From IMG/VR virus record IMGVR_UViG_3300028454_000679: 64,000 nt of DNA, one strand, 5' to 3'. Position 1 is the first letter of the stretch; each line of letters starts with the position of its first letter. The position numbers and the translations under genes were made by a program. The notes beneath the pieces were generated by a model, which was given only the letters and a program-made list of their open reading frames with translations, was not told where the DNA came from and searched no databases. The DNA is from a virus (taxonomy: Duplodnaviria > Heunggongvirae > Uroviricota > Caudoviricetes). Positions 3,613 through 24,027 of this stretch are shown in pieces.

Positions 3613-3614
3613 AG

Positions 3615-4679
3615 TTATTCCTTGTCATAAACCTGCATAAGAAGATACACAAACTCATCAGTATACTTCTCTAGGCTTACATCGTCTGGTACAACAACCC
3701 TAGGCTTTATCCAAAAAAGGAAGCGTGCTATAACATCATAGTCAATTTTGAGAAACACTTTAAAAAGGTCATCAACATCAATACCGTCCTTGCTATAAAC
3801 AATTACAGTGTCCTCACTCATCTTAAAGTAAAGGTCGTCCTTTACAACAACACGCAAAAAGTTATCCCAAAAGTCCTCTTTGATAACGTATAGTGAAATG
3901 GAACTGCTTCTCTGCACTGCGGTGTACAAACACCCATAGGTCTTTCTACACATTTTCTGTAATTCCCCAGAAGCAAGTAAGCTTTCGGAGTATGGGTAAG
4001 TTAAGTTACTACTAAGAAAAATACCACTCATTGCTTCAAAAGACATCATAGGGAAAGTACCGAGATTAACATTCTTAATATCAGCTCCCCAAAACATACC
4101 AATTGCTGATTCCACACCACTAAAATCTACATAATCCCACGTAATATTCTGTACCTTACTACGCGCAAACATATGGTCTACATTCTTAACGTAGAGTCCT
4201 CTGAAATCTGTAAAATTGACATCCTCTGCTTCAGAACCTCTGAACAGTCCTGTCAGTGAAGTAATGCCTGGTTTATCTAAAGAGTTGGACAAAATAACAT
4301 GTTGTGAATGTTTGGCTAACCTGTTGATTGTTTTGATATCAGTTTGCCTTATATAGGTTTTTGAAAGATCAAGTGTTATAAAATTTGAGCATAGAGAATT
4401 GCCCCAGCTGTAATTATCTACGATTGTAGAAGTTTGCGTGTCAATATCCAATGGGATTGTATTACACACATCTACTGCAACAGTTCCAGGTTTGCACCAA
4501 CTGGCTGGTACTAAACGGATTACATTACCAGAAGCATTAAGAACCTGAATACCCTGTTCTAAAAGCTTTTCTTTCTTGTCTAAAATAGTCTTTAGGTCCA
4601 GTGCATAATCCTTACCTTCACACTGCCAGTAAGTTAACCCCTTTAATTCCAATGCCCTTACTTGCTCCTCTGTAAACAT
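3615..4679 (-). CDS. DUF285/BspA-like repeat protein, paralog 2 of 4
   Basis: N-terminal ~60 aa nearly identical to paralog 1 (MFTEEQVRALELKGLTYWQCEGKDYAL). Same FTDFRG / ITWDYVDFS repeat pattern, with a longer C-terminal extension. Confidence 0.45.
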   Translation of the reverse strand: MFTEEQVRALELKGLTYWQCEGKDYALDLKTILDKKEKLLEQGIQVLNASGNVIRLVPASWCKPGTVAVDVCNTIPLDIDTQTSTIVDNYSWGNSLCSNFITLDLSKTYIRQTDIKTINRLAKHSQHVILSNSLDKPGITSLTGLFRGSEAEDVNFTDFRGLYVKNVDHMFARSKVQNITWDYVDFSGVESAIGMFWGADIKNVNLGTFPMMSFEAMSGIFLSSNLTYPYSESLLASGELQKMCRKTYGCLYTAVQRSSSISLYVIKEDFWDNFLRVVVKDDLYFKMSEDTVIVYSKDGIDVDDLFKVFLKIDYDVIARFLFWIKPRVVVPDDVSLEKYTDEFVYLLMQVYDKE

Positions 4680-4681
4680 AG

Positions 4682-5461
4682 TTATGCCTCCTGTTTCTTA
4701 CACCACTGTTGTAATGTTCCTGTTGTAACAGCCTCTTCAGTAAATTGATAGGATAGTGAACTATTGTGAAAGATACCCTGACACTGCTCTGCACTCAGAA
4801 GAGGTAGAGAACTTAAATTCACATAGTTACACCCTCTAAAAGACTTGAAGGCATTTTTAGCACTACTGACACTCTGCAGTGAGGCATGCTTCCAAATAAA
4901 GTCACCTGCGTAAACACAATTGAAAGCATCATCTAAAGTCTGCAAGTACTTGCCAGTGAAGTCAGTAAAGTCTAGGGACTCAAAGTATCCACCCTCAAAG
5001 ATAGCCAACTCTGTAATATCAGGTTTATCAAAAGACTTCCCTAGCACAACACCACTCCGAGTATTCTGTGCGAAGAACCGAACGGTCTGCAAATCCTCAG
5101 GATGCACAAAGAATTCCCTAGCGTCGAAAGGTGGCAGAGGTGATGTGAAGCACAGGCAATCATCTGAAAGGTCTAGAGTGTAACTACACTGCTTAAGAGT
5201 CCTTGAATCAATAAACATTGGTAAAGTGGTGACATTGTGTGACTTGTAAGTATAACTAAAAGTTCCCTCATTACCAACAATCATAACCCCTTTTGGTGCT
5301 AACCCTATAACACCATTGCAGTCAGTTAATACTTCCAGACCCTGTAAAGCACTCAAGCATTGCGGTAAGTCGTTAGGATTGATTACAACATCCTTACTCT
5401 CAAATTGCCAGTAAATTCTGCCTGTGGCTTCAAGGGCTTTTACTTGTTCGTAACTAAGCAT
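4682..5461 (-). CDS. DUF285/BspA-like repeat protein, paralog 3 of 4 (divergent)
   Basis: N-terminus MLSYEQVKALEATGRIYWQFESKD. Motifs DFTDFTGKYLQTLDDAF and a C-terminal LQQWCKK tail are shared with paralogs 1 and 2. Confidence 0.4.
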   Translation of the reverse strand: MLSYEQVKALEATGRIYWQFESKDVVINPNDLPQCLSALQGLEVLTDCNGVIGLAPKGVMIVGNEGTFSYTYKSHNVTTLPMFIDSRTLKQCSYTLDLSDDCLCFTSPLPPFDAREFFVHPEDLQTVRFFAQNTRSGVVLGKSFDKPDITELAIFEGGYFESLDFTDFTGKYLQTLDDAFNCVYAGDFIWKHASLQSVSSAKNAFKSFRGCNYVNLSSLPLLSAEQCQGIFHNSSLSYQFTEEAVTTGTLQQWCKKQEA

Positions 5462-5481: not shown

Positions 5482-6765
5482 CTAAATAATAGTAAGACCA
5501 CTGAAAATATCATCCACAGATTCAACTGCTTGCTGAGCCACTTGAGGCTGCTGAGCTGGCTGTGGTGCAGTGTTCGACGGTTGTACCAATTGCTGAGTAG
5601 ACTGTTGTGATATACCTGCAAAAACACCTGACTGCTGAACACTCTCTGGCTGTGGTGCTAATACATCAGGCGTAGTGTTGCTGTAAACATCACTAAGTGT
5701 GCTAGCCAAGTCACTAACACTGGAAGCATCAGCCAAAAGTGCTCTTTGAGTCACCTCAGGATCCACAGAAGAAATCGCCTGCACAAGAGATGCTTCAACC
5801 TCAGCTGACAACTGGTGTGCCCACTTTGAGATATTGTTATGTGCTAATACTCTAACATCCATATCAAATTCATCCGACTTACAAACATTAGAGTAAATAG
5901 AGATAATACTCTCAACAACAAACTGTCTAGTAGCTGCGTCAGTAGGTACTGCTGGATTCTCACCTGCTATAACTTCCTCAGCAGTTTGCTCGTTTGCGAA
6001 TAACTTTGCATACTTGTAAAACTCATAACCCAGAGTCTCCCCAACACACGCACAGATTTTATTCATAACGATAGTAGAGTTAATATCCCCTGCAACATTC
6101 AAAGTATCAGAAACACGTTTCCAAGTTCTCGGTGATGCGAATACAATCTCGTCCTCATTCTCCGACTGAGTATGCAGACTTGTAGGATGCGATTCTATAT
6201 AGGACGTCACAAGTGGGTTTACACCTTTACCATCCTTACCGCGGTAAACACGGGCATAATCCTCTACCCAGACTTTAGCATCCATCTGCACATTGTAAAT
6301 CTCAAAACGGTTTGCTAATGGTGCAGCTAACTCTTCATAGACACCACCATCGTCCTCCCCATTTCCTAAAGCAATAATAACAGTGTCATCAGGTAGGAAG
6401 TGTCTTCCAAGGCGTCTGTCCAACACAAGCTGGTAAGCAGCAACCTGTACACGTTTTGTAGCTGAAGTAATTTCATCCAAAAGTAGGATAGTCTTTGGAC
6501 CGCCCTCCTTTGGAAACCAATCCGGAATAAGCCAAGTGGTTTCTGTACGAGTTTCATTGGGGTAAATAAGTCCGCACAACTCAACTTCAGACATCTGTGC
6601 CAAACGTAAATCCTCCACGTGATACCCAAGTTCTCTACCAATCTGTTGAATAATCTCAGACTTTCCGATACCAGGTGCACCTAAACCCAAGATAGGTTGC
6701 TTTAATCCACTCTTGATTGTAAATTCAATAATCGACTTAAATTCCCTTGTGTTAATTGATCGCAT
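5482..6765 (-). CDS. MoxR-like AAA+ ATPase
   Basis: Walker A LGLGAPGIGKSE and Walker B ILLLDEITS. Core of ~300 aa followed by a Q/P-rich C-terminal tail. Adjacent to the VWA partner gene. Confidence 0.75.
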   Translation of the reverse strand: MRSINTREFKSIIEFTIKSGLKQPILGLGAPGIGKSEIIQQIGRELGYHVEDLRLAQMSEVELCGLIYPNETRTETTWLIPDWFPKEGGPKTILLLDEITSATKRVQVAAYQLVLDRRLGRHFLPDDTVIIALGNGEDDGGVYEELAAPLANRFEIYNVQMDAKVWVEDYARVYRGKDGKGVNPLVTSYIESHPTSLHTQSENEDEIVFASPRTWKRVSDTLNVAGDINSTIVMNKICACVGETLGYEFYKYAKLFANEQTAEEVIAGENPAVPTDAATRQFVVESIISIYSNVCKSDEFDMDVRVLAHNNISKWAHQLSAEVEASLVQAISSVDPEVTQRALLADASSVSDLASTLSDVYSNTTPDVLAPQPESVQQSGVFAGISQQSTQQLVQPSNTAPQPAQQPQVAQQAVESVDDIFSGLTII

Positions 6766-7795
6766 TGAAACCTCCTAAACTTAACAACTCTTTTTCTTCC
6801 TCTGTTATTTCATCTTTAAATTTGAAAGCAAACCCACCTGCCGTCTCTTGAAATGGATACTGCTTTAGACCCTGAAAATACACATTTGGTATCTCCTGTG
6901 TAAAAATACCTAAGCTGTCTGAAATATATAAACAACTTCGTTCAAATTCCTTCTCATAATACTTATTGAAAGCATCCATTGACGTAAAACGTGTGAACAG
7001 ATTATCTTTGTGCTTGAAACAATTGCTAAACTTAACAGTCTCTGGGAATGTACTGATATCAGCACCTAATTGACGATGGAAGGAATCCTCAACTACCCTC
7101 AGATTCTTCGGATTAAAATTTCTCCAGACTACACTAGTTCTGTAGGAGCTATTCATAAATCGATAAATCCTCTCCAAACACTCACCAGTGAAATCAGTAA
7201 AATCGATACCATCATAATGACGATTGTTAGCAAATGTTAGCTCCTTAGCGTTATTAAAAGATGCTCCTAATTCAAGATAGCACACGCTATCTGACAAGGT
7301 GCGATAAAGCTCAGGTAGAGCAAATCCCTCATACCACTCTATCTTATTCACATTCAAGTCGATAATAGTTCTATGATGGTTGAGAGTGAGTTGCGGTACA
7401 AATCCAGTAAGGTTAAAATCTGTATCAAGTGCAACAGGAAGCATTGTGATAATCTTGGACCCATTAGATCTTGCCTTCTCCCATTTTTTGTAGGCATTTT
7501 TATCACCATCTAACCAGTCAACAATAACCTGGTCATTGAAACTCTTTGGAGAAAACACACTAAAACTACAGGTGCCAGTTGGAATCATCTCAAAAGGATT
7601 AAAGAAAACAAACTTATCTCTCGTTTTATAAACTGCAAGACTGTAATCCTTAGCGAACTGTACAATGTTCTCTGGCTTAAGATGATGCTTTGACACAAAG
7701 ATACCACCTTTTATTGGTAGATAGATAAAACCACGGAGTCTCATTGCCTGTTTAATTGATTCATCAACCATTAGTAACCTCCACCTCTGAACCAT
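6752..7795 (-). CDS. DUF285/BspA-like repeat protein, paralog 4 of 4 (divergent, no shared N-terminus)
   Basis: DFTDFTGECLERIYRFMNSS and WRNFNPKNL-type repeats resembling paralogs 1-3. Located upstream of the MoxR gene. Confidence 0.35.
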   Translation of the reverse strand: MVQRWRLLMVDESIKQAMRLRGFIYLPIKGGIFVSKHHLKPENIVQFAKDYSLAVYKTRDKFVFFNPFEMIPTGTCSFSVFSPKSFNDQVIVDWLDGDKNAYKKWEKARSNGSKIITMLPVALDTDFNLTGFVPQLTLNHHRTIIDLNVNKIEWYEGFALPELYRTLSDSVCYLELGASFNNAKELTFANNRHYDGIDFTDFTGECLERIYRFMNSSYRTSVVWRNFNPKNLRVVEDSFHRQLGADISTFPETVKFSNCFKHKDNLFTRFTSMDAFNKYYEKEFERSCLYISDSLGIFTQEIPNVYFQGLKQYPFQETAGGFAFKFKDEITEEEKELLSLGGFNAIN

Positions 7796-8747
7796 CCAAT
7801 GCCCGCACTACAGTAAAGACATTAGCACTTTTGATTTCCTTGACATACCCAATAGAGCCATCTTCAAATATATACTCATCACCTGCTGACATGGTAGCCA
7901 GGTTAGAGGCAAATGCCTCTGCAATACCCTTATCAAATAGTGTTCCAGAATTCTCTCTAATATAACTTAAAGCTTGTACACATGTGTCAGCCTTTTTGTA
8001 AATTCTGTCTGAGACAAGTGCGTCATAGCAATCCACAATTCTTAAGATTCTCCCATAAATAGGAATCTTTGTACCTACAAGATTGTATGGGTACCCTGAC
8101 CCATCAAAGTTCTCATGATGAGTAAGGACAGCGTACTTAATCTCCTTAGACAAGTTAGCATTGTCCTTAATCATATTGAATCCAACAACAGGGTGCGATT
8201 GTATGCACTCTCGCTCCTCGTCCGTAAATCTGCCTTTCTTCCACATAACATTAGAAGGAATCATCTGCTTACCCAAATCATGTAAAAGACCGGCAATAGC
8301 AAGATCGTAAACCCTAGGTGTTTCCAGACCCAGTCGTATACCAAGTGCCGCTGCGTAGACTGCTACATTAACAGAGTGATTGAATGTGTATGAATCAAAA
8401 ACACACAAGTTCATAAGATTGCTCGTAATAAAACCTCTATCGTTGATAAGTAGCTCAGATGCTATTCTGTTTGCGTAAACAACACAGGCATCAAAGTTCA
8501 TAGACCTAAGAGCATGAATTGTCTCTGCTCTCGTCTTTACAGATATAGTCCCTTCCGCAACGCTTGTTACATCATCCAAGATACACACTTGACTGAAACC
8601 ACGTTTTTGTAGTAACTCTATGTCAGCATTGGTCAACTCGTCGTCTGCGTTTAAAGCAATACCGCCATTGAGATTATAGATAGGAAGAGCTAATCTGTCC
8701 TTTTCACACAATTCCTCAGTTTGGACAAAATGCATAATAATCTCCAT
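7764..8747 (-). CDS. HD-GYP domain phosphodiesterase (cyclic (di)nucleotide phosphodiesterase)
   Basis: LLHDLGK (HD motif) and HHENFDGSGYP (HD-GYP signature) in the C-terminal half. The N-terminal ~150 aa are of unknown function. Confidence 0.75.
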   Translation of the reverse strand: MEIIMHFVQTEELCEKDRLALPIYNLNGGIALNADDELTNADIELLQKRGFSQVCILDDVTSVAEGTISVKTRAETIHALRSMNFDACVVYANRIASELLINDRGFITSNLMNLCVFDSYTFNHSVNVAVYAAALGIRLGLETPRVYDLAIAGLLHDLGKQMIPSNVMWKKGRFTDEERECIQSHPVVGFNMIKDNANLSKEIKYAVLTHHENFDGSGYPYNLVGTKIPIYGRILRIVDCYDALVSDRIYKKADTCVQALSYIRENSGTLFDKGIAEAFASNLATMSAGDEYIFEDGSIGYVKEIKSANVFTVVRALDGSEVEVTNG

Positions 8748-8790
8748 TCAAGATTTTATAGTAATACTGGTAATGCTTTAAACTAAGTAG

Positions 8791-10044
8791 CTACTTTATA
8801 ACTACTGGAGTTCCGTAAATAATAAAACTTTCTAACCAATCTGCAAACTTCTCTGGCAGATTTATACCTCCATGAGAGCCTGCGGTTTTGTAAATGTTTC
8901 CACCGAAGGAGCCTCGCCAGTCAGCATCATGTAAGCCGACGCCGGAGTTCGTTAGACGATACCAATGATCTACCCAAGTACAATATCCGTCGCCTCTTAG
9001 GTACTTACCTTGCGGACTTATCTCTGTTACAGTGAATACACCTGATGGAGTATCATAAACACCAAGTGTTCCAGTGACACAGTCAGTCTCCTTGACCACT
9101 TTTCCATCTTTATATACATAAACATGCTGTTTCTTTTTGTTCACATAGATAAAGCTGTTTCCTACATCATCTGGAGCTTGTAGTCCAGTAATAGGTTTTT
9201 GGCTGTAGATCGGAGCAAACTGACCCAAGAAACCTTTATCCTTGTGCTGCTGTAGGAAAGCTTCTGCAGTTTTCTCCTCATCAACAACAAAGCCATATGT
9301 TCCTCCACTAACCTCAATATCCTTATCATTCAGATGAACAACATGTTTACTCCCTGCAGTGTTAAACTTTTCAGACAGCATACTTGCATAGGTTTTAGAA
9401 AGTGAGACAGTGTCTAAGGACACAGTACCTTTCTTGCTAATGGAAACAAACTTCTTAATGGTCTCAAAAGTAAGCGGACATTCCTTTTTAACTTCCCAAG
9501 ACTTGTAACTCTTTAGCTTCTTTAGCTGTTTATCTACTTTGCTATTATTATTTTTAGGCTCCTTTAGCCATTGTTCCACATGATAGATGCCTGCACCCTG
9601 CAATGGGATGCTGTCTACATCACACAAATAAGGCTTATTCTTAGAGGACACTGTTAAATCCTGATTTAGGGTCTTAACCGCAAAAAGAAAAGTTTGCTCA
9701 AAATGGCTCTGTAAAACGCCTTTGCTTCCTGGCTTCACAGACGCTTTAACAAACTTTTCGATTTTATCAGTAGCGGAAAAAAGATTGATATGTTCTATAC
9801 TCTCCTTATCCACACTAAATTCAAACAACTCCTCGTTTGGTATAGTACATTCCATACCAAATGCTTTAAATGTTGACTCTCCTGTGCTCAACTCATCTAC
9901 ATAATCATTCACAAGAGTAGCAGTTTCTCTTTGTACCCTTTTATTAAATTGATGGCACCCTAAAGCTGCCCCTAAAACAATAGCTAAAACAATAAGTGCA
10001 ATTCTTCGTTTCATAAATTCTCCTTGATTCCTAAGTATATTCAT
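8791..10044 (-). CDS. secreted L,D-transpeptidase (YkuD)-like protein, probably catalytically altered
   Basis: Signal peptide (MKRRIALIVLAIVLGAALGC). The C-terminal VGLHDADW....AGSHGGINLP....YGTPVVI matches the YkuD fold, but the SHGC catalytic Cys is replaced by Gly. Confidence 0.5.
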   Translation of the reverse strand: MNILRNQGEFMKRRIALIVLAIVLGAALGCHQFNKRVQRETATLVNDYVDELSTGESTFKAFGMECTIPNEELFEFSVDKESIEHINLFSATDKIEKFVKASVKPGSKGVLQSHFEQTFLFAVKTLNQDLTVSSKNKPYLCDVDSIPLQGAGIYHVEQWLKEPKNNNSKVDKQLKKLKSYKSWEVKKECPLTFETIKKFVSISKKGTVSLDTVSLSKTYASMLSEKFNTAGSKHVVHLNDKDIEVSGGTYGFVVDEEKTAEAFLQQHKDKGFLGQFAPIYSQKPITGLQAPDDVGNSFIYVNKKKQHVYVYKDGKVVKETDCVTGTLGVYDTPSGVFTVTEISPQGKYLRGDGYCTWVDHWYRLTNSGVGLHDADWRGSFGGNIYKTAGSHGGINLPEKFADWLESFIIYGTPVVIK

Positions 10045-10633
10045 ACTTGTAAACTACCTTAAAAGTACACTCACGCACCTAAGTGTGCACCAGTATATAA
10101 GTAAACACATAAGTCATTTCATGACTGTAAGTAGAATCATCTATTTCCTTATATGCAATCACTGACACATACTCATTCTCCTAAAGCCACGTAACCTCCT
10201 CTGTAGGCACAGCCTTACACTTACATACATCCTCTTACTCATACCCTAGAGCCACTGACAGGGAATACTCAAACACCAGTGCTAACACATAAGTCAGCTT
10301 ATAAGTCGCCACACATGCAAACACTAGTGTCTAAACATGTTAATACACTATGGTCAAAGTCAATGTATGCTTCAATAGTTGTGTATACTCATCAAACGAA
10401 TTGCACGCATGAGCCTACTTAGGTACAGTAGCATATTTCTAAATTACCTTAACAGACGGAGTCAGTCTATGCTTATATGTAGGCTTAGATACAGACTTGA
10501 CAGTTTGTGTCAGCTTATATATAGGTTTGGAAGTCAATGGCAGAGTAAACTCAAGCAACAGTGGTAGAGTAAACTTCTATACCAGAGTAAGTACAGACTT
10601 ATCATTCGACGGTGAAGTAACCACGGGCTGATT

Positions 10634-10729
10634 GTTGTCTAACGTGTTGATATGGTAAAGTGCCTGCTTTGCTCTCATGTACCCTAAGGTACTGCAGGTA
10701 AAATTACTCATATCAACACGTTAAACAAC
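10634..10729. repeat. inverted repeat carrying CTAACGTGTT motif (centromere/operator-like)
   Basis: gttgtctaacgtgttgatatgg and catatcaacacgttaaacaac form an inverted pair about 55 bp apart. Confidence 0.5.
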
Positions 10730-10732
10730 AAT

Positions 10733-11110
10733 AGGGGAGGTGGGGTAGTAAATGCTACCCCTATAATGGAAAATGCAAGCACAAACTAATGACACCTAAC
10801 GTGTTAGCACACCTAAAATCTTTTCACATATCCATTGTACCCAAAGGTACTAAAAGAGTAAAAGGTTGTGCTAACACGTTAGATGTCACAAAATACAAAT
10901 CCCTTGTAAGTTGTCACGTTAGACAACAAAGAGGAGGTCGGGGTAGCAAACACTACCCCTAAAAATGAAAAACACATCAAACTAATGGCACCTAACGTGT
11001 TAGCACACCTAAAATCTTTTTCACTCAAAAAGAATACCCAAAGGTACTAAAAGAATGAAGGTTATGCTAACACGTTAAGTGTCACAAAAACATAAGTCAA
11101 CTTATAAGTC
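10733..11110. repeat. two tandem ~190-bp repeats upstream of parA, each with a hairpin (GGGGTAG-N6-CTACCCC), a TATAAT-like box and two oppositely oriented CTAACACGTTAG sites; candidate parS/centromere
   Basis: Direct comparison of 10733-10925 with 10930-11110 gives about 85% identity. At least 7 copies of the 10-12 bp CTAACGTGTT motif in both orientations occur across 10636-11075. Confidence 0.55.
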
Positions 11111-11167
11111 AACTCATACATTGACACACCCAGAAAAAATTGCTATACTCTTAGTGGAGGTGTAATA

Positions 11168-11893
11168 ATGAAAACAATAGCAATAGCAAGCCAAAAGGGT
11201 GGTGTAGGTAAAACAACCACAGCCTTGGAACTCTATGACTGCTTAAAAGTTGCTGGTAAGTCTTGTTTATTCATAGACTTAGACCAACAGTGCAATGCAA
11301 CATCAACACTCGCTAACTTTCCTGACAACTGTAATACTATATATGACGTGCTCAAGAAAAACTGTGTAGCCAAACAAGCACTCCAAGGCGATATAATCCC
11401 TGGCAATCCATTACTCGCTTCAATTGAGTATGAACTCTCGTCAGTTATAGGTGGTGCGTTACGTCTAAAGCAGGCCCTTGCTGGATTAGACTACGATTAC
11501 TGCATAATAGACACGCCACCAAACTTAGGCATATACCTAATAAGTGCACTCATAGCTGCTACAGATGTTATAATACCAGTTAAGGCAGATGTATTCTCAA
11601 TCGAAGGGCTCTCAAACATACTAACGACAGTCAATGAAGTTAAAGAGAACTTCAACCAATCACTAAACATAATGGGTATACTTTTAACAAACTATGACCA
11701 GCGAAGGGAACTCGACCGGAAGATATGGAACACACTACACTATACAAAAATAGATTACCCGGTGTTCAATACCAAAGTACGAGTATGCCAAGACATAACA
11801 AAATCATGGAACAGTAAACAATTACTCTCTGAATACAATCCCAAGTGTAAGGCATATGAAGACTACTCAAAACTAGTAAAGGAGATAATTTAA
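11168..11893 (+). CDS. parA: ParA/Soj-family partition ATPase
   Basis: Deviant Walker A KGGVGKTT, then IDLDQQCN...IIDTPPNLG. 241 aa. RBS GGAGG. Located downstream of the repeat array. Confidence 0.85.
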   Translation: MKTIAIASQKGGVGKTTTALELYDCLKVAGKSCLFIDLDQQCNATSTLANFPDNCNTIYDVLKKNCVAKQALQGDIIPGNPLLASIEYELSSVIGGALRLKQALAGLDYDYCIIDTPPNLGIYLISALIAATDVIIPVKADVFSIEGLSNILTTVNEVKENFNQSLNIMGILLTNYDQRRELDRKIWNTLHYTKIDYPVFNTKVRVCQDITKSWNSKQLLSEYNPKCKAYEDYSKLVKEII

Positions 11894-12244
11894 ATGGCAG
11901 GAGATCAAAAAGTAAATGCAGCATCCTTATTGCTCAGCTCATTACAGACTAAAGAGAAGCAAGCACAAGAACCTCTAGCAACTCCAGAGACCTATGAGCA
12001 CGACTTTGGTGATGTAGACATGCAAGACTTGGAGTTTAACAGAGCAAAAGAACGTCAAGCTACACGAAACAAAATCCTACGAGAGGGTGATAACTTCGTA
12101 GTACAATCTGTGGAACGTAGAAGTAAGAAAAAGAACTTCATGTTTCCGGAATCCCTTGCTGAGAAGTTTGTTCAGGAAGCAAAAGCACTAAATGTTTCTC
12201 AAAACGAACTAATAGTCCAAATTCTTGAACAACGTTATAAGTAG
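11894..12244 (+). CDS. ribbon-helix-helix centromere-binding protein (ParG-like partner of ParA)
   Basis: Start codon abuts the parA stop. The C-terminal KKNFMFPESLAEKFVQEAKALNVSQNELIVQILE is RHH/CopG-like. Confidence 0.5.
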   Translation: MAGDQKVNAASLLLSSLQTKEKQAQEPLATPETYEHDFGDVDMQDLEFNRAKERQATRNKILREGDNFVVQSVERRSKKKNFMFPESLAEKFVQEAKALNVSQNELIVQILEQRYK

Positions 12245-12289
12245 CCTTGGTTGTTTAAAAATTATAATAGATAGATACAACTTATTATA

Positions 12290-12480
12290 CTTCTTTAAGA
12301 GAGGTGAAAATCCCCAAGTAACAAGGGTTTGCACAAGTTTACCCTTACCCTAAAGTAGAAACTTCTGTCCTAAAGATAGTAAACTACTGTATCGCTAGAT
12401 ACAAACTTCTTGTAGTGCAGTAGAGTAAAACTACTACATCTGGTGTATAAACTTCTGTATAGAAAGTAGAAAGTAGTGGC
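12290..12480. repeat. AT-rich region with repeated AAACTTCTGT / TAAACTACT motifs (possible origin-associated repeats)
   Basis: gaaacttctgtcc, caaacttcttgtag and taaacttctgtatag are direct repeats roughly 45 bp apart. Confidence 0.35.
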
Positions 12481-12539
12481 AGGAGAGTAGTAAGTTCAGC
12501 TAAATAGTGCCGAAGTGACTTTGTAAACCACAAAATATA

Positions 12540-12730
12540 GCAGTAACTGCCAAAATTCTACAAAAAGTACAGAACTTCAGTCAAAATTCTACACACTGAT
12601 TGGTAAAGCTTAGAGTACTCTACAAAATATACGGAACTTCAAAAAATCTACAAAATGAGCAGAACTTCCAAAAACGGGAAGAACAGTGAAAAATGTAGAG
12701 AAAGTTCTTGACAAAATGTAGAGACTATTG
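12540..12730. promoter_or_regulatory. iteron array plus promoter upstream of rep (putative replication origin)
   Basis: At least 3 direct repeats of ~22 bp, TCTACAAAAnnnnCnGAACTTC (12556, 12618, 12646), plus AAAATGTAGAGA x2. TTGACA (12708-12713), 17-bp spacer, TACACT, then RBS GGAGG. Confidence 0.5.
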
Positions 12731-12753
12731 TACACTCCTATTGGAGGTGTAGT

Positions 12754-13902
12754 ATGAGTAAAGAACCCACAACGTATGAGTATACATCGCTTGCTAAAGA
12801 CAACCTACTAATAAGTGCAAAGTATAGAGCAACACTACTAGAGCTTCGCGTGACCTATGCCTGCTTATTCATGATACAAAACAATAGCTATACAGAGAAA
12901 CCAGACGGCATCTATGTAAGCATGAAAGCAGGTGAACTCCGTGAGCTGATTGGTGCAAACTCGGGCTCTTTCTACAAGAGTCTTCTTCCTGTTGCTCAAA
13001 GTATGACAGCAAGGAGTCTGGGTATGGTAAACCCGGAGAATGAAGAGTTTGACTTTATTAGCCTAATAACTGAAGCCAAGTACAAAGATAGCGTGTTAAC
13101 AGTAGTCTTTAACAATAAGCTAAAGAAACATCTTGTTGCACTAAAGATGGACTATACAACAATACCAAAGCAGTACATAATGAAATTGAACTCAAATTAT
13201 GCTTTTAGGCTTTACGAGATACTGAAGAAGTCATGTTTTTATAGTAAAAGTTACAATGGGGAACGCAATGGCTATTTCCTCATACGACTCTCATTAGCAG
13301 AACTAAAATTGGATTTAGGTGTTGTAAATTCTGCACTAGACTCAGTTCAAAAAGAGCTACGTGGGTCCAAGACACCAAATTATGAAAAAGCTGTACAAGC
13401 CTCATCTGAAAAACTCTATGAGGACTGGTCATCATTCAAACGCTCATGTTTGGACAAGCCAATACGTGAGATAAACCAGAAAACTGACATACACGTTGAG
13501 TATGAAACTCATAGAGCCGGTCTAGGTGGTAAAGTGCATGCAGTGTCATTCACAGTGTATGTAAAAGAACTAGACAAGTCAAATACAACTGAAACCACCG
13601 GACTGACTGATCAAGAGAAGTTTTTATTTCACATGGAAGTTTACAAACTATTTGAGCAATACAAATTATCAATAGACTTCATTCAAAAACTCTCTGAGGC
13701 ATCAGACTACACCCTAGCCACACTCAAGGAAGTTGAAAAGGTTCTTAGAGCCTCTAATGGTGTGGCAAACATAGAGGGATGGCTTCTCAGTGCAGTAAAA
13801 GAGAGGTACTCACTACACCCTGCACAATCCGTAAACTTCAGGCAACGCGAGTATGATTACGATGAACTTGAAAGACGAATGCTTAACCGGAAAAGAACCT
13901 AA
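12754..13902 (+). CDS. replication initiator protein, Rep_3-like (iteron-type plasmid Rep)
   Basis: N-terminus YTSLAKDNLLISAKYRATLLELRVTYACLFMIQNN resembles the Rep_3/RepB motif (ARY.LS..E.RL.L..I..I). Iterons lie immediately upstream. Confidence 0.5.
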   Translation: MSKEPTTYEYTSLAKDNLLISAKYRATLLELRVTYACLFMIQNNSYTEKPDGIYVSMKAGELRELIGANSGSFYKSLLPVAQSMTARSLGMVNPENEEFDFISLITEAKYKDSVLTVVFNNKLKKHLVALKMDYTTIPKQYIMKLNSNYAFRLYEILKKSCFYSKSYNGERNGYFLIRLSLAELKLDLGVVNSALDSVQKELRGSKTPNYEKAVQASSEKLYEDWSSFKRSCLDKPIREINQKTDIHVEYETHRAGLGGKVHAVSFTVYVKELDKSNTTETTGLTDQEKFLFHMEVYKLFEQYKLSIDFIQKLSEASDYTLATLKEVEKVLRASNGVANIEGWLLSAVKERYSLHPAQSVNFRQREYDYDELERRMLNRKRT

Positions 13903-14002
13903 GACTTCGCAAAAGTCTTGTTTAACGAATAGTTAGTTCAAACTGTACACACTTATAAACTATCCTCGTAAGGGTAGCTTGTAAGTGAATACAGAGTGGA
14001 GT

Positions 14003-15076
14003 CTAAAGAGGCTCCACTCGAAGCTTTTTACACCTTGACTTAGAATAGAGTTTTACCTTGTATATGTCTTTTACAGTTGATGGCACTGTCACACTGTAAA
14101 CAGTTTTATTTGGTTTAACGCTCTCACGAGAGAAATGGAAAACATCACCTTGGGGCGTTACAAGTTTAGCAGTTGCAGTGGAATCCTTACACTCAAACCT
14201 AAAAGTGACAGGGTCTTCTGAAGGATGCTTCACACGAAACTTTTTTGTGTGACCATTCCTAAACTGTCCCTTTACAGAGACTTTCTCCACAGTTACACCT
14301 TTAAATGGATAAGTAACTGTTACATCCCCTGGCAAGTAGTTCACGCGGAACACTGCCTTACTCTTTCCCACACACTCAGGGTAAATTGTGTACCCTGAGC
14401 TATCCAAAGTAATACAAGGATATTCTAAATCTGAAACAAATCTTACGGTAACTATGGCACGCTTAACGGCACCGCACTCTTTAACAACTCTAACTCTTTG
14501 CTCCTCACTAGAACACGGAATAAACTCTCCATCCTGGCTGTAATCAAAGTAAGGCTCTGTGCAGTAAACTGGGCTTGAGAGCGTTTCAGTAAAACTAGTA
14601 CCCCTAACAGTCCTAGTGAACTTCTTACCATTCTTACGCTTGAAAACAACAGTGCAGCTTTTACCATCCTTTGCTGGATAAAAGCCATAGGGCACATCCT
14701 GCAAGGTCACCTTACTGCCATTCACACTGTAAAGGTAAGCACTCTTCCCATTGTACTTGCACAGTAATTTACCGCTCGTTGTCAACCTAACTCTAAATGG
14801 TAGGACATCAAAGTACATAAATGCTGGTGTGTAGTTTAGCGGTTCTACAGTATTCGAACACTTCACATCACCTGTTGTCTTTGGACTAGGTTGTGGAGCT
14901 GCTGCAGGAGTGGAGTTTTGAGAAACAGACCCCGAGCACCCTGAGAAAAACATACACACCAACAGAGTTAGAGCTAAAACACGTTTATTTACGACCAAAC
15001 CGATGTTACGGCAACCCAAGATGACCCATTGTAGTATTTTAACACACCTGGTGTGTAAGAAGATGTGTCTACCCAC
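14003..15076 (-). CDS. secreted lipoprotein, beta-rich (Ig-like) hypothetical
   Basis: Lipobox-like LLVCMFFSGC near the N-terminus; rich in T/V/K beta-strand pattern. The true start is probably internal to the listed ORF. Confidence 0.35.
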   Translation of the reverse strand: MGRHIFLHTRCVKILQWVILGCRNIGLVVNKRVLALTLLVCMFFSGCSGSVSQNSTPAAAPQPSPKTTGDVKCSNTVEPLNYTPAFMYFDVLPFRVRLTTSGKLLCKYNGKSAYLYSVNGSKVTLQDVPYGFYPAKDGKSCTVVFKRKNGKKFTRTVRGTSFTETLSSPVYCTEPYFDYSQDGEFIPCSSEEQRVRVVKECGAVKRAIVTVRFVSDLEYPCITLDSSGYTIYPECVGKSKAVFRVNYLPGDVTVTYPFKGVTVEKVSVKGQFRNGHTKKFRVKHPSEDPVTFRFECKDSTATAKLVTPQGDVFHFSRESVKPNKTVYSVTVPSTVKDIYKVKLYSKSRCKKLRVEPL

Positions 15077-15253: not shown

Positions 15254-15991
15254 CTAACATTCCTCCGAACTACGTTTTTCAATAAATGAACAAATAAAAA
15301 TACTAAACTGATACAGGAGTACAATAGGCACTGCAACTGCAATCTGGCTCACAACATCAGGCGGTGTTATAATTGCAGCTAATACAAAAGCAAGTACAAT
15401 TACAACCTTTCGTACCTTTCGTAAAAATGCTGTATGGACAAGACCTATCTTGCACAACACAACATTCACTAAAGGTATCTCACAGATAATACCTATTGCT
15501 AATCCCAATCCCACAAACAATCCCACAAAACTGTCCACACTAACAAGTGGTGTGACACCAAAGGCGGAATACCCCGTACCAAGTAAGAATTGTATGGTAA
15601 ATGGGATGAGCCACCTAAATGATGCATACATACCTGCCACAAAGACTCCATACCCAATGAAGGTGAAAAAGAACACCTTAAGCACTTTTACATTAAAAGC
15701 AGGTAAGACAAAAGCCAATACATTGTAAATGAGCAATGGTAAAGTGAGTAGGAAACTCAGAGTGAGACTGAGCTTTATCTCCTGCATAAATAGTGACTGT
15801 GGTGTTAAATACATAAATCTGAATCCAGCATTGTCCCCCACAAGCAGTATGCTTTGTATAACGGTCTTCCTGAACACGTAGGCTATCATAAACACAGCTA
15901 TAAGGAACACTGCGCAGATAAACAGCCTATGAGTTAGCTCCATCAGATGTTCCTGAGGATTCATCTGATTTACTGGTTTCTTCCTCTTCAT
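15254..15991 (-). CDS. tatC: Sec-independent protein translocase TatC
   Basis: Six predicted TM segments. N-terminal LMELTHRL motif and C-terminal ITPPDVVSQIAVAVPIVLLYQFSIF, which matches the TatC TPPDxxSQ..LA.P...LYE motif. Confidence 0.8.
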   Translation of the reverse strand: MKRKKPVNQMNPQEHLMELTHRLFICAVFLIAVFMIAYVFRKTVIQSILLVGDNAGFRFMYLTPQSLFMQEIKLSLTLSFLLTLPLLIYNVLAFVLPAFNVKVLKVFFFTFIGYGVFVAGMYASFRWLIPFTIQFLLGTGYSAFGVTPLVSVDSFVGLFVGLGLAIGIICEIPLVNVVLCKIGLVHTAFLRKVRKVVIVLAFVLAAIITPPDVVSQIAVAVPIVLLYQFSIFICSFIEKRSSEEC

Positions 15992-16121
15992 TTTCCTTCA
16001 AAGCCTTTCTGAAAATCTTTAAAGAGTCTCCTGCACCCTTTGCTAACTTAGGTAATTGAGTTGCCCCTCCTAAAAAGACTATAATTAACAAAACAATTAA
16101 CAATTCTGTTGTACTAACCAT
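15927..16121 (-). CDS. tatA: TatA/E-family translocase subunit
   Basis: Start refined to MVSTTELLIVLLIIVFLGGATQLPKLAKGAGDSLKIFRKAL: TM helix, Gly hinge and amphipathic helix. Acidic S/T-rich tail. Confidence 0.65.
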   Translation of the reverse strand: MVSTTELLIVLLIIVFLGGATQLPKLAKGAGDSLKIFRKALKENEEEETSKSDESSGTSDGANS

Positions 16122-16359
16122 TACTATCCTCCTTATTTGCAGTGTCCTCAGTGGTGGATACTGCATCTGCTAAATCCTGTTTGACCTCGTTAAGCGTATC
16201 CTTGACTTCATTTATAGGTACAGAGAGGGTCTCTGCACCCTCTCTGTAAGCTTTCATAGCTTTACCCAACTTCTCTGCGAACTGAGCTATCTGCTCTGGA
16301 GAGAAGAATATATGACAGCAAACAAGGATAACTATTAATTCTGGAACTCCAATACTCAT
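16114..16359 (-). CDS. tatB: second TatA/TatB-family subunit
   Basis: MSIGVPELIVILVCCHIFFSPEQIAQFAEKLGKAMKAYREG has TatA/B topology (TM, hinge FSP, amphipathic helix) with a longer charged tail. Confidence 0.55.
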   Translation of the reverse strand: MSIGVPELIVILVCCHIFFSPEQIAQFAEKLGKAMKAYREGAETLSVPINEVKDTLNEVKQDLADAVSTTEDTANKEDSNG

Positions 16360-16368
16360 ATGTCACCT

Positions 16369-19232: not shown

Positions 19233-20498
19233 CTATTTATCTTCACTTTCTACATATGTGAAAGTTGCAGACTTAGCTATGCTGTCCAGAACCTTTGTTG
19301 ACAAAGCCATACGCTTTACAAAGTCCTCACCCTTCATAAACTCAGAGTCGTAGAGGGAGTAAACATCATCTGTACTAGACTCTTCGTATGATGAACCCTT
19401 TACAAGATCCTTTACGTAATTAGTTATCTCTTTCTTGGAGATAGTAGCATTCTCCTCTTCGGCAATCTTTAAAGAGATTGCTAAGTTTACTAAAGTGGAA
19501 TCCAAACGCTCTCTGGAATCCTGAACAAACTCCTCGTAAGTCTGACCACCGGACTGCTCGAGATACTCCTGTAGGGAGTTATATTGACTAGCATACATCT
19601 TAGTGTACTGATCAAGGTAAATTGCTAACTCCTGGTCTTTGACATCCTGTGAAATCTCAACGTCGGAGTTCTCTACAATCTCTGCAAGTAAAGTGGTACG
19701 TTTTGCCTGCTTCTCGTGGTAAGTATTGTAATCATTAGCAAAATCCTCACAATACTTCATAAACTCGTTAACACTCTTATAAGATGTGTTAGCTATAAGA
19801 ATATCGTCAGAAATAGTCTTATGGTCATACTTGATAGAACGCTCTGCACTTACAAGTGTGATTTTAAAGTCAGCCTTCTTCCCTGCAACATCGGAAGGTA
19901 GTAAGTTCTCATGTTCCTCCTTTTCAGGCGTTTCACCATCAAATGGGTCGAATTCCTCAGGAAGCTTCATACTAAACTTAAGAGGCTCTTTTGTTCCCAC
20001 TTTGTATCCTGTGAGACGTGCATCCACACCATGGCAGTATGCATCCTGTCCTAATTCATAATCAGGCAAAGTCATAGAACTGCCATTAAAAGTCTGACCA
20101 TCCACTGTTACTTCTATGTTGACTTTGAGCAAATCGCCAGTCTCAATCTTCTCACCAGCAGGCAATGTGTAGGTAGTGTCAAGCTGGCTAAGAACATAGT
20201 CGGCGTAATCCTCCTTTGTGAGTGTATCGTCATCCTTGTCAATTGTAACAGTTAAACCCTTATACTTACCAAGCTTTTTAACACAGTCAGCTAAATTGTA
20301 CTCAATAGCTTTCTTCGGTCTTCTGAAAGTACTCGTACTTTCAGATTTTTCCTTAACAACTTTCTTAGTGTCTTTACCATCTTTAAAGTACACGACACAG
20401 TTCATTAAAACTGATAGAATCAGGAAGGTGGCAAGTACTACGTTTGCTACTTTAAGAATTCTCACCTGCTGACTTAATTCTGTAATTCTTTTCTTCAT
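19233..20498 (-). CDS. trigger-factor-like protein (FKBP-type PPIase plus TF C-terminal-like domain), membrane anchored
   Basis: N-terminal TM, then ...GDLLKVNIEVTVDGQTFNGS (FKBP/trigger-factor PPIase pattern GD.V.ID..G..DGE.F.G), then a helical C-terminal region. Confidence 0.4.
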   Translation of the reverse strand: MKKRITELSQQVRILKVANVVLATFLILSVLMNCVVYFKDGKDTKKVVKEKSESTSTFRRPKKAIEYNLADCVKKLGKYKGLTVTIDKDDDTLTKEDYADYVLSQLDTTYTLPAGEKIETGDLLKVNIEVTVDGQTFNGSSMTLPDYELGQDAYCHGVDARLTGYKVGTKEPLKFSMKLPEEFDPFDGETPEKEEHENLLPSDVAGKKADFKITLVSAERSIKYDHKTISDDILIANTSYKSVNEFMKYCEDFANDYNTYHEKQAKRTTLLAEIVENSDVEISQDVKDQELAIYLDQYTKMYASQYNSLQEYLEQSGGQTYEEFVQDSRERLDSTLVNLAISLKIAEEENATISKKEITNYVKDLVKGSSYEESSTDDVYSLYDSEFMKGEDFVKRMALSTKVLDSIAKSATFTYVESEDK

Positions 20499-20509
20499 AA
20501 TTCTCCTCT

Positions 20510-21582: not shown

Positions 21583-21594
21583 ACATCCACCTAC

Positions 21595-22053: not shown

Positions 22054-22062
22054 AATAATACC

Positions 22063-22629: not shown

Positions 22630-22632
22630 GTC

Positions 22633-23927: not shown

Positions 23928-23939
23928 AACTAAAGGAAA

Positions 23940-24025: not shown

Positions 24026-24027
24026 AT

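What the first reader, a model, noticed from the sequence alone, without database searches (positions are those of the whole stretch)
10045..13902. Plasmid-type maintenance module (centromere repeats - ParA - RHH ParG-like - iterons - Rep_3-like) inside a phage-like gene array: phage-plasmid or megaplasmid?
Seen in sequence: this is the only plus-strand island. A 1.1-kb non-coding region holds at least 7 copies of CTAACGTGTT in both orientations, two ~190-bp tandem repeats each with a GGGGTAG/CTACCCC hairpin, and a second motif family ((A)CATAAGTCA, 5 copies). Next come parA (deviant Walker A KGGVGKTT) and a 116-aa protein with an RHH-like C-terminus. A 500-bp AT-rich spacer then carries at least 3 direct ~22-bp iterons (TCTACAAAAnnnnCnGAACTTC) and a TTGACA-17-TACACT promoter, followed by a 382-aa Rep_3-like initiator. 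Inference: the element probably replicates and segregates as an extrachromosomal replicon. No integrase is present in the window.
Basis: partly seen in the sequence, partly recalled or inferred. Interest (0 to 1): 0.6.

Follow-up and report, generated by a model that had tools for sequence, protein, structure and literature searches.

The report
Plasmid-type replication and partition cassette
This stretch is a conventional plasmid-style "replicate and segregate" cassette (Rep_3 initiator with iterons, ParA ATPase, a small ribbon-helix-helix partner and a repeat array) that most likely keeps a 234-kb circular, phage-like element of a rumen or gut Lachnospiraceae bacterium outside the chromosome.

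Summary
parA (11168-11893), a 116-aa protein with a C-terminal ribbon-helix-helix (RHH) (11894-12244) and a Rep_3 initiator (12754-13902; Rep3_N 3.5e-22, Rep3_C 2e-10) form the only complete plus-strand gene block in the window. Upstream of parA lie three symmetric repeat units. All seven TAACGTG cores in the 64 kb fall within 438 bp. Upstream of rep there are six 21-22-bp iterons (0.08 expected by chance): three direct, two inverted distal, and one inverted over the rep -35. Loci whose Rep is 57-59% identical repeat the clustering and the distal-inverted/proximal-direct polarity. A syntenic relative keeps parA and the RHH gene but carries an unrelated Rep_3 and different iterons. The source genome assembles as a 234,184-bp circle in independent samples. 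I found no integrase and no host flank in about 104 kb. Phage or megaplasmid is unresolved. No capsid, portal or terminase turned up in that 104 kb, but the genome has tRNAs, ThyA, a jumbo-phage-type ATPase and a fused beta-beta' RNA polymerase. The Rep family is otherwise typical of Lachnospiraceae megaplasmids. Verdict: a sound, fairly ordinary new member of known module types. The RHH family is rare, and its binding site is unassigned.

The parts
10045..11167 (.). Non-coding region of 1.1 kb between the leftward gene array and parA. It holds all the repeat families and, presumably, the promoter of the leftward operon.
   Evidence: No gene is called here in the source contig. There is no Rfam match.
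10631..10732 (.). Symmetric repeat unit 1. Inverted arms carry CTAACGTGTT and AACACGTTAA, with a central palindrome GTACCCTAAGGTAC (10679-10692).
   Evidence: I1: 24-nt arms, 96% complementary, 54 nt apart. D8 and D11..
10790..10888 (.). Symmetric repeat unit 2. It carries the 12-bp palindromes CTAACGTGTTAG and CTAACACGTTAG, with the central GTACCCAAAGGTAC (10837-10850).
   Evidence: I2: 22-nt arms, 95% complementary, 55 nt apart..
10986..11084 (.). Symmetric repeat unit 3, with the same layout. The central palindrome is ATACCCAAAGGTAC (11034-11047).
   Evidence: I5, D6 and D9..
10742..10761 (.). Hairpin or palindrome GGGGTAG-N6-CTACCCC between units 1 and 2. Its role is unknown. No T-run follows it, so it is not an intrinsic terminator.
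   Evidence: I7 and D3.: -7.3 kcal/mol, z = -3.6.
10940..10959 (.). Second copy of the GGGGTAG/CTACCCC hairpin, between units 2 and 3. An extra half-site (10915-10929) precedes it.
   Evidence: I7 and I11.: -6.1 kcal/mol, z = -3.7.
11091..11118 (+). Tandem repeat CATAAGTCAACT, 12-bp period, 2.3 copies, abutting the parA -35. It is a candidate operator or alternative centromere element. Related copies lie at 10107-10116 and 10287-10310.
   Evidence: period 12, 2.3 copies., D2 and D10..
11121..11149 (+). parA promoter TTGACA-17-TATACT (extended -10 TG). The Shine-Dalgarno GGAGG follows at 11156-11160.
   Evidence: 11 of 12, the best site in the region., D13: the promoter/RBS segment is 83% identical to that of rep.
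11168..11893 (+). parA: a 241-aa Walker-type partition ATPase, Soj-like, with no N-terminal DNA-binding extension.
   Evidence: AAA_31 1.7e-44, covering residues 1-168. (phrog_164, 6.5e-57). (best solved relatives are a ParA-family protein, 8ray, then Soj of Thermus and of Helicobacter, 4e-32 to 1e-26).
11894..12244 (+). 116-aa candidate centromere-binding protein. It has a conserved N-terminal peptide (residues 1-20), a disordered linker and a C-terminal ribbon-helix-helix (about residues 78-115). Its start codon directly follows the parA stop codon.
   Evidence: sub-threshold RHH_1, HicB and Antitox_RHH matches. (family alignment). (helices 86-98 and 103-115, pLDDT 93-95). (best fold matches are AmrZ, Arc, CopG and an RHH antitoxin, none significant).
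12255..12300 (.). The most AT-rich tract of the spacer (70-78% AT). It is a candidate DNA-unwinding element.
   Evidence: 40-nt windows. That this is where the DNA melts is inference.
12404..12470 (-). Two inverted iterons (12404-12424 and 12450-12470), 46 nt apart. A degenerate third copy lies at about 12360-12380.
   Evidence: The degenerate copy was read by eye.
12557..12668 (+). Three direct 22-bp iterons TCTACAAAA-N4-C-N-GAACTTC at 12557, 12619 and 12647.
   Evidence: D1.. (each matches 17 of 17 specified positions).
12702..12722 (-). Inverted iteron overlapping the rep -35 hexamer. It is a candidate autorepression operator.
   Evidence: compared with the promoter coordinates. L006 has copies at the same position, about -50.
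12708..12736 (+). rep promoter TTGACA-17-TACACT. The Shine-Dalgarno GGAGG follows at 12744-12748.
   Evidence: 10 of 12.
12754..13902 (+). rep: a 382-aa Rep_3 initiator with WH1 (residues 14-158), WH2 (220-267) and a clade-specific C-terminal extension of about 110 aa.
   Evidence: (phrog_4402).
13994..14019 (+). Stem-loop of 11 pairs followed by a T-run. It is terminator-like and closes the plus-strand island where it meets the convergent gene 14003-15076.

Best explanation
The block 10045-13902 is the basic replicon plus active-partition cassette of a 234-kb circular extrachromosomal element.

Replication (inferred from family behaviour). Rep monomers bind the three direct 22-bp iterons and the inverted distal copies. 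They open the adjacent AT-rich tract and recruit the host replisome for theta replication. Rep bound to the inverted iteron across its own -35 represses rep. The extra iterons probably limit copy number.

Partition (inferred). The strong parA promoter drives a translationally coupled parA-RHH operon. The RHH protein binds a repeat array upstream of parA as a dimer. Its conserved N-terminal peptide stimulates the Soj-like ParA ATPase on the nucleoid, which segregates the copies. This follows the delta/omega and ParF/ParG (type Ib) logic.

Shown here: protein family identities, repeat statistics, the clustering and polarity of the iterons upstream of rep in relatives, the cassette swap, and circular non-integrated assembly.

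Inferred: all binding events, the site of melting, the direction of replication, and which repeat family is the centromere.
For: - Rep3_N and Rep3_C score well above Pfam cutoffs. RepE and pi are the nearest solved structures.
- Six iteron matches lie within 320 bp and nowhere else in 64 kb, against 0.08 expected.
- In loci with 57-59% identical Rep (L006, L007, L009), 16 of the 18 motif matches lie within 370 nt upstream of rep. L006 and L007 share the polarity of minus-orientation copies distal and plus-orientation copies proximal; L009 shows only three proximal direct copies. L006 also has copies at about -50.
- L019 keeps parA (79%), the RHH gene (53%) and the downstream TatC block. Its Rep_3 shows no significant similarity by BLAST, and its own repeat, TATAACAAAAnTTACAC, recurs about eight times upstream of that rep (read by eye). 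So initiator and iterons travel as one unit.
- ParA is a Soj-like deviant Walker ATPase.
- The RHH gene abuts the parA stop codon. Its family has a conserved N-terminal peptide and a C-terminal beta-alpha-alpha segment.
- All seven TAACGTG cores in the window cluster in 438 bp, in three symmetric units.
- Related parA-RHH loci also have non-coding regions of about 1 kb, packed with repeats, upstream of parA.
- The map is circular at 234,184 bp, with independent assembly breakpoints.
- No integrase was found in about 104 kb.
- Rep homologues sit at position 1 of Butyrivibrio megaplasmid pNP243, next to parAB.
Against: - No DnaA box (TTATCCACA with at most one mismatch) lies in the region.
- GC skew stays negative on both sides of the putative origin. 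A bidirectional origin is therefore not visible in the skew, although coding-strand bias alone could explain this.
- RHH assignment is sub-threshold by sequence (E=0.008) and non-significant by Foldseek (E>5). The profile search of solved structures found no RHH protein.
- The array upstream of parA is unlike the short 11-12-bp-period arrays of related loci. It also sits between divergent transcription units, so it could be regulatory.
- Nothing here is experimental.
Confidence: 0.75

Rival explanations
1. The molecular machinery is the same, but the carrier is a non-viral megaplasmid rather than a phage-plasmid. The cassette is then simply the only replicon of a very large plasmid full of ORFans.
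For: - No capsid, portal, terminase or tail gene was found in about 104 of 234 kb.
- The Rep family is found in 242 plasmid records against 1 phage record. Its best annotated relatives are Butyrivibrio and Roseburia megaplasmids, and all genome hits are Lachnospiraceae.
- The element and its RHH family are absent from the IMG/VR collection searched.
- Many genes are of the cell-envelope or signalling type: TatAC, signal peptidase, PBP, sortase, MCP, PilZ.
- A neighbouring 212-aa gene family is shared with VirB4-bearing conjugative elements.
Against: - Genes form a dense one-strand array, with 3 tRNAs, ThyA and guanylate kinase.
- The AAA_5/DUF2201 pair has its best annotated relatives in jumbo phages G and PA5oct.
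- The genome encodes a 2,459-aa fused beta-beta' RNA polymerase and a ligase-like protein.
- The closest Rep relatives (57%) sit beside BppU_N tail-type genes and a diversity-generating retroelement.
- No conjugation or relaxase gene was seen in 104 kb.
Confidence: 0.4
2. The repeat array upstream of parA is mainly a transcriptional control region for the divergent promoters, that is an immunity or early-gene switch. On this view the 116-aa RHH protein is an Arc/CopG-type repressor rather than a centromere-binding adaptor.
For: - The 1.1-kb region lies between divergent transcription units and must hold the promoter of the leftward operon.
- Minus-strand promoter-like sites fall inside the units; one has a -10 overlapping the central palindrome at 10837-10850.
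- The best fold matches are repressors: AmrZ, Arc and CopG.
- 12-bp palindromes are also typical operator sites.
Against: - The RHH gene is translationally coupled to a ParA ATPase. That pairing is conserved in L019, L051, L053 and L067.
- The family has a conserved N-terminal peptide separated from the RHH by a variable disordered linker, as ParA-activating adaptors do.
- In known type Ib systems the same protein is both repressor and centromere binder (established knowledge of omega and ParG). The two roles therefore do not exclude each other.
Confidence: 0.2
3. The Rep_3 cassette is a recently acquired or vestigial plasmid module that is not the origin the element actually uses. Replication would run from another origin, using element-encoded replication proteins.
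For: - GC skew does not change sign at the iterons.
- The cassette is an inverted island that is exchanged between relatives.
- In pBtic235 a 10-kb deletion that includes repA still allows lytic replication (PMC9700832).
- Jumbo phages generally carry their own DNA polymerase (PMC7824862).
Against: - All three ORFs are intact and have near-consensus promoters and ribosome-binding sites.
- The three direct iterons are perfect in all 17 specified positions.
- The exact cassette is present in 7 contigs from several samples.
- No DNA polymerase or other initiator was seen in 104 kb.
Confidence: 0.1

Closest known systems
Iteron-controlled Rep_3 theta replicons: RepE/oriS of F, pi/gamma-ori of R6K, RepA of pPS10, and the lactococcal pCI305-type replicons with 22-bp iterons upstream of repB (the last two from my own knowledge)
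   Same: - WH1+WH2 initiator.
- Direct repeats of about 22 bp immediately upstream of rep.
- An inverted copy over the rep promoter.
- An AT-rich tract distal to the iterons.
   Different: - Iterons are spaced 28 and 62 nt apart rather than contiguous.
- There is a distal set of inverted copies.
- No DnaA box is present.
- Rep carries a C-terminal extension of about 110 aa.
- The replicon carries 234 kb.
Replicons of Lachnospiraceae megaplasmids and chromids (Butyrivibrio fibrisolvens pNP243, B. proteoclasticus pCY186, Roseburia sp. 831b plasmid)
   Same: - Homologous Rep: 31%, 28% and 28% identity over at least 91% of the length.
- A par operon lies next to rep in pNP243.
- The host family is the same.
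   Different: - pNP243 uses ParA with an HTH ParB and carries ordinary metabolic genes.
- This element uses an RHH partner and carries phage-like informational genes.
Type Ib partition systems with an RHH centromere-binding protein: delta/omega of pSM19035 and ParF/ParG of TP228 (own knowledge)
   Same: - A small Walker-type ParA with no N-terminal DNA-binding domain.
- A partner with a flexible N-terminal tail and a C-terminal RHH.
- The repeat array lies upstream of the operon, next to its promoter.
   Different: - No detectable sequence homology to omega or ParG.
- The partner is longer (116 aa).
- The candidate sites are 12-bp palindromes arranged in symmetric units of about 100 bp inside a 196-bp tandem repeat, not contiguous heptad or tetramer boxes.
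Large plasmid prophages of Bacillota, for example pBtic235 of Bacillus thuringiensis (235 kb; PMC9700832), and phage-plasmids in general (PMC7969092)
   Same: - Circular, about 235 kb, with tRNAs and a ligase.
- A plasmid Rep module set apart by strand from the bulk of the genes.
   Different: - The virion genes and particles of pBtic235 have been demonstrated. No structural gene has been seen for this element in 104 kb.
- The Rep families were not compared here.

Membership tests
Rep_3 (iteron-binding plasmid initiators) | N-terminal WH1 and C-terminal WH2 domains, matching Pfam Rep3_N and Rep3_C above the gathering scores | tested here: met
   79.7 bits (cutoff 22.4) and 41.1 bits (cutoff 21.1); the profile hits RepE and pi.
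Rep_3 (iteron-binding plasmid initiators) | Cognate directly repeated iterons next to the rep gene | tested here: met
   The motif also clusters upstream of rep in three relatives, and a different repeat accompanies the swapped Rep of L019.
Rep_3 (iteron-binding plasmid initiators) | Rep binds the iterons and supports autonomous replication | not testable with these tools
   This needs EMSA or footprinting and a mini-replicon assay.
Type Ib ParA/RHH partition system | Deviant Walker A ParA with no N-terminal HTH domain | tested here: met
   KGGVGKTT at residues 10-17, and the AAA_31 match starts at residue 1 of 241. Soj-like.
Type Ib ParA/RHH partition system | The downstream partner is a ribbon-helix-helix DNA-binding protein | tested here: inconclusive
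   RHH_1 E=0.008, below the cutoff. The AF2 model has two confident C-terminal helices after an extended segment. Six of eight Foldseek matches are RHH proteins, but all have E>5.
Type Ib ParA/RHH partition system | A cis-acting repeat array bound by the partner, usually upstream of the operon | tested here: inconclusive
   Strongly non-random arrays are present. Two motif families compete for the role, and binding is untested.
Type Ib ParA/RHH partition system | The partner stimulates ParA ATPase and the cassette stabilises a plasmid | not testable with these tools
   This needs biochemical and stability assays.
Phage-plasmid | Plasmid replication and partition genes on an extrachromosomal, non-integrated genome | tested here: met
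   (circular, 234,184 bp). No integrase was found.
Phage-plasmid | Virion, packaging and lysis genes (major capsid, portal, terminase, tail) | tested here: inconclusive
Only relatives by Rep carry tail-type genes.

The most novel reading that the evidence does not exclude
The carrier may be neither a classical tailed phage nor a conjugative plasmid. It could be a distinct kind of giant extrachromosomal element of Lachnospiraceae that encodes its own fused beta-beta' RNA polymerase, tRNAs and a set of envelope and secretion proteins. On this reading it persists by borrowing interchangeable host-plasmid Rep_3/iteron cassettes and a private ParA-RHH partition system.
Probability: 0.15. Interest if true: 0.75.

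Novelty: new member of a known kind. Interest (0 to 1): 0.38.

Why it matters
The cassette gives a concrete, testable origin and partition locus for a 234-kb uncultivated element of rumen or gut Lachnospiraceae.

- It could seed vectors for a group of bacteria that lacks genetic tools.
- It shows modular exchange of the initiator-plus-iteron unit between otherwise syntenic giant elements.
- It adds a rare ParA partner family that is not in Pfam: 15 cluster representatives among 1.84 billion.

If the carrier proves to be a virus, it would be a jumbo phage that lysogenises as a low-copy plasmid. Few such cases are documented (pBtic235).

Tried and rejected
- DNA similarity. A blastn search of the block against phage and plasmid collections found nothing beyond a 49-nt Walker-A stretch.
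- RNA families. Rfam gave no match on 9800-14200.
- DnaA boxes. None was found with at most one mismatch.
- IMG/VR. Searches with Rep, the AAA_5 ATPase and the RHH family found no close relative. ParA alone has only 30-38% relatives there.
- False terminase lead. A PHROG 'terminase large subunit' hit in L147 looked like a route to a phage hallmark. The homology search showed the protein is a VirB4 conjugation ATPase, and no member comes from the 234-kb genome.
- 'Hodor' gut megaplasmids (Rep_3+ParA+ParB, about 357 kb, 44-47% GC; PMC12934698). I considered these and set them aside because of different size, GC content and partner protein.
- pCY186. It shares only Rep and ParA-type genes.
- Collagen-repeat PHROG hits of the 938-aa and 796-aa proteins. 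I did not count these as tail evidence because they rest on low-complexity repeats.
- The profile search of solved structures with the RHH family gave only spurious hits.
- I could not recover the region upstream of parA in the closest par relative, because its contigs are cut there.

Full report
**1. What is in the sequence**

Three ORFs on the plus strand interrupt an otherwise minus-strand gene array: 11168-11893, 11894-12244 and 12754-13902.
- The first is a 241-aa ParA. It has the deviant Walker A KGGVGKTT at residues 10-17, matches AAA_31 at 1.7e-44 and phrog_164 at 6.5e-57, and its nearest solved relatives are a ParA-family protein (8ray) followed by the Soj proteins.
- The third is a Rep_3 initiator. 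Rep3_N scores 3.5e-22 and Rep3_C 2.1e-10, both far above the Pfam cutoffs. A profile of its clade hits RepE of F and pi of R6K among solved structures.
- The middle ORF starts on the base after the parA stop codon. By sequence it gives only sub-threshold RHH matches (RHH_1 E=0.008).

**2. The 116-aa protein**

It belongs to a very small family.
- The word-indexed search found two proteins. The exhaustive HMM search found 15 cluster representatives among 1.84 billion.
- The family alignment shows three parts:
  - a conserved N-terminal peptide, MAKxxxxSAsxLLxSLK;
  - a variable, proline- and glutamate-rich linker;
  - a conserved C-terminus, G-D-x-F-V-V...EKR..KKNF(L/M)FP..L..KFA.EA..LGVSQNELI.QIL.QRY.
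- AlphaFold2 models residues 86-98 and 103-115 as helices with pLDDT 93-95. An extended segment precedes them, and the N-terminal two thirds are of low confidence.
- Six of the eight best Foldseek matches in the PDB are RHH proteins: AmrZ (two chains), Arc, CopG, an RHH-type antitoxin and one unnamed transcription factor. Superpositions reach 0.6-1.4 Å over 30-33 columns for the antitoxin, CopG and one chain of the unnamed transcription factor. All E-values are above 5, because the domain is so short.

I accept the RHH fold as likely but not proven. 'ParG-like' is right as an architecture and wrong as homology.

**3. Repeats upstream of parA**

Tandem Repeats Finder reports a 196-bp period, 1.9 copies, at 10717-11089. 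The finer anatomy is three symmetric units at 10631-10732, 10790-10888 and 10986-11084.
- Each unit has two inverted arms. In units 2 and 3 the arms are themselves 12-bp palindromes (CTAACGTGTTAG and CTAACACGTTAG or CTAACACGTTAA).
- The arms are 54-59 nt apart and flank a central palindrome, GTACC-N4-GGTAC.
- The units are separated by spacers that carry a GGGGTAG-N6-CTACCCC hairpin. The second spacer also has an extra half-site.

The exact 10-mer occurs 4 times against 0.14 expected. The core TAACGTG occurs 7 times in the window, all within 10640-11077.

A second family, ATAAGTCA, forms a 12-bp-period tandem (2.3 copies) that ends 3 nt before the parA -35. It recurs at 10109 and 10289-10305. 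Its total count in the window is not above chance, but four of the five copies lie in this region.

**4. The origin region**

The pattern TCTAC-N10-GAASTT has six matches in the window, all between 12404 and 12722, against 0.08 expected.
- Three are direct copies at 12557, 12619 and 12647.
- Two are inverted copies at 12404 and 12450, with a degenerate third at about 12360.
- One inverted copy, at 12702-12722, covers the -35 hexamer of the rep promoter (12708-12736).

The last one is the classical arrangement for autorepression in this initiator family (established knowledge of RepE, pi and RepA).

The most AT-rich tract (70-78%) is at 12255-12300, distal to the iterons. The spacer as a whole is only 65.8% AT against 60.3% for the window. 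No DnaA box was found.

**5. Comparative support**

Rep has 72 relatives in the large protein collection. The closest (57-59% identity) sit on contigs of 112-303 kb.
- In three such loci the iteron motif clusters within 370 nt upstream of rep (16 of 18 matches). L006 and L007 show the same polarity as the window, with minus-orientation copies distal and plus-orientation copies proximal. L009 shows only three proximal direct copies. L006 also has copies at about -50.
- L019, a 5.8-kb contig, is syntenic with the window. Its ParA is 79% identical, its RHH protein 53%, and the downstream 316-aa, 84-aa and TatC genes are 38-68% identical.
- Between those genes L019 carries a 451-aa Rep_3 with no significant BLAST similarity to the window's Rep. 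A different repeat, TATAACAAAAnTTACAC, recurs about eight times upstream of it (read by eye).

Initiator and iterons are therefore exchanged as one unit while the par genes stay. That is what one expects of a functional replicon under incompatibility pressure.

Three further loci carry parA followed by a member of the same RHH family (L051, L053, L067).
- L051 and L067 have repeat-packed non-coding regions of about 1 kb upstream of parA.
- Their repeats are short arrays with an 11-12-bp period. In the window, the ATAAGTCA tandem resembles that layout more than the large symmetric units do.

I could not decide which family the RHH protein binds.

**6. Is the element extrachromosomal?**

The exact Rep is encoded on a 234,325-bp ENA contig and on four other contigs of 0.2-1 Mb.
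- The two ends of the ENA contig map to window 57285 and 57425. They overlap by 141 bp, which is the assembler's k-mer.
- The window, a 234,317-bp JGI contig whose ends lie about 27 kb away, and a Logan contig all cross that junction at 100% identity.

The map is therefore a 234,184-bp circle, or a circularly permuted genome. No recombinase or integrase domain appears in the window or in the flanks I could reach, about 104 kb in all. No host housekeeping flank was seen.

**7. Phage or plasmid?**

For a phage:
- a dense one-strand array of mostly unknown ORFs, 3 tRNAs, thymidylate synthase and guanylate kinase;
- a DUF2201/AAA_5 pair whose best annotated relatives are in phage G and PA5oct;
- outside the window, a NAD-ligase-like protein and a single 2,459-aa ORF with both beta and beta' RNA polymerase domains;
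- BppU_N tail-type genes and a diversity-generating retroelement next to the closest Rep relatives.

Against a phage:
- no capsid, portal, terminase or tail gene in 104 kb;
- a Rep family that is overwhelmingly plasmid-borne, in 242 plasmid records against 1 phage record, with the best hit in Butyrivibrio pNP243;
- absence from the IMG/VR set searched;
- many envelope and signalling genes.

About 130 kb could not be reached with the look-up caps. I put a phage-plasmid at roughly even odds with a megaplasmid, and a smaller share on something else.

The host is very probably a Lachnospiraceae. The 47 closest of the 60 genome hits for the Rep clade, every hit above 26% identity, are from that family (including Lachnospiraceae-type Eubacterium), and many are from rumen samples.

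**8. Mechanism and its weak points**

The mechanism I commit to is given under Best explanation. Three steps are weak.
- Assigning the centromere, for the reasons in sections 3 and 5.
- The absence of a DnaA box.
- The GC skew, which is negative on both sides of the iterons. If skew reflects replication here, the fork moves leftward across the whole window. That fits unidirectional replication starting at the island, not a bidirectional origin. If skew only reflects the coding strand, it says nothing.

**9. Comparison and novelty**

The replicon is a Rep_3 iteron replicon. The partition genes follow the type Ib logic of delta/omega and ParF/ParG. Large plasmid prophages of Bacillota are documented (pBtic235, 235 kb, PMC9700832), and phage-plasmids are widespread (PMC7969092).

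The new points are modest:
- a rare RHH partner family that is not in Pfam;
- an unusual, highly structured array upstream of parA;
- evidence of a cassette swap;
- the nature of the carrier.

The finding is correct and useful but not surprising. The carrier genome deserves its own look.

Noticed in passing
L206 11930-19309 (same 234-kb genome, about 17-25 kb left of the window start): A single 2,459-aa ORF carries both RNA polymerase beta (Rpb2_45, Rpb2_6) and beta' (Rpb1_2, Rpb1_3, Rpb1_4) domains. It is only about 25% identical to bacterial RpoB/RpoC. It hits PHROGs 24349 and 25354 at 1e-55, and more weakly PHROG families annotated as RNA polymerase beta subunits. A NAD-ligase-like ORF and an HNH ORF flank it.
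   Followed up: partly
window 7764-10044, 15254-16360, 19233-23247, 31218-35658, 38263-38985, 45587-47692; L017 15592-17937: The element carries an unusual load of envelope, secretion and signalling genes. These are HD-GYP, L,D-transpeptidase, TatC with two TatA, a trigger-factor-like protein, S26 signal peptidase, an SH3_3 protein, flotillin, PARG, sortase, PilZ, a methyl-accepting chemotaxis protein and a class-A PBP.
   Followed up: partly
L019 1022-3576 versus window 12245-13902: A syntenic relative has swapped the whole rep-plus-iteron unit for an unrelated Rep_3 with a different repeat (TATAACAAAAnTTACAC). It has an extra 96-aa ORF in front of that rep. The par genes and the downstream genes are kept.
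   Followed up: yes
window 13830-13900 (Rep residues about 360-382); L019 Rep C-terminus: The C-terminal motif F-x-QR-[ED]-Y-D-x3-LE is conserved in the Rep clade. It is also present in the otherwise unrelated Rep of L019. It may be a docking peptide for a host replication factor.
   Followed up: no
window 1-64000: GC skew of the plus strand is negative almost everywhere and does not change sign at the putative origin. Only 12001-14000, which holds the plus-strand genes, is slightly positive.
   Followed up: partly
window 12346-12357: TACCCTAAAGTA in the origin spacer is a one-mismatch copy of the central palindrome of the three units upstream of parA (TACCCWAAGGTA). The pattern has 5 matches in the window against 0.5 expected. 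It may be a shared binding site that links the two regions.
   Followed up: no
window 2863-5461 and 6752-7795: Three consecutive ORFs (249, 354 and 259 aa) begin with nearly the same N-terminal segment, M(L/F)TEEQV(K/R)ALELKGLTYWQCEGKDYAL. A fourth, nearby ORF looks weakly similar. Together they form a tandem paralogue array between the DUF2201 and AAA_5 genes.
   Followed up: no
window 24826-25362 and 40623-41141: Two ORFs share a near-identical zinc-ribbon segment, MTKIRCQ(K/V)CGGE(N/E)LH(S/T)EGA. They are dispersed paralogues.
   Followed up: no
L012 470-1108 (right of the window), and L147, L153, L160, L167: A 212-aa ORF has 40-61% relatives on many large contigs, up to 259-481 kb, some labelled human gut. 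On one smaller contig (L147, 60 kb) it lies next to a VirB4 conjugation ATPase that PHROGs mislabel as a terminase.
   Followed up: partly
L205 1-2547 (same genome, about 17-20 kb right of the window end): This is the C-terminal 848 aa of a 2,193-aa ORF with no Pfam or PHROG match. Downstream of it lie a cold-shock protein, a Schlafen/AlbA_2 helicase-like protein and two AAA_14 ATPases.
   Followed up: partly
window 23939-24026, 29314-29389, 29883-29957: tRNA-Ser(TGA), tRNA-Met(CAT) and tRNA-Gln(TTG) lie on the minus strand, within the gene array.
   Followed up: no
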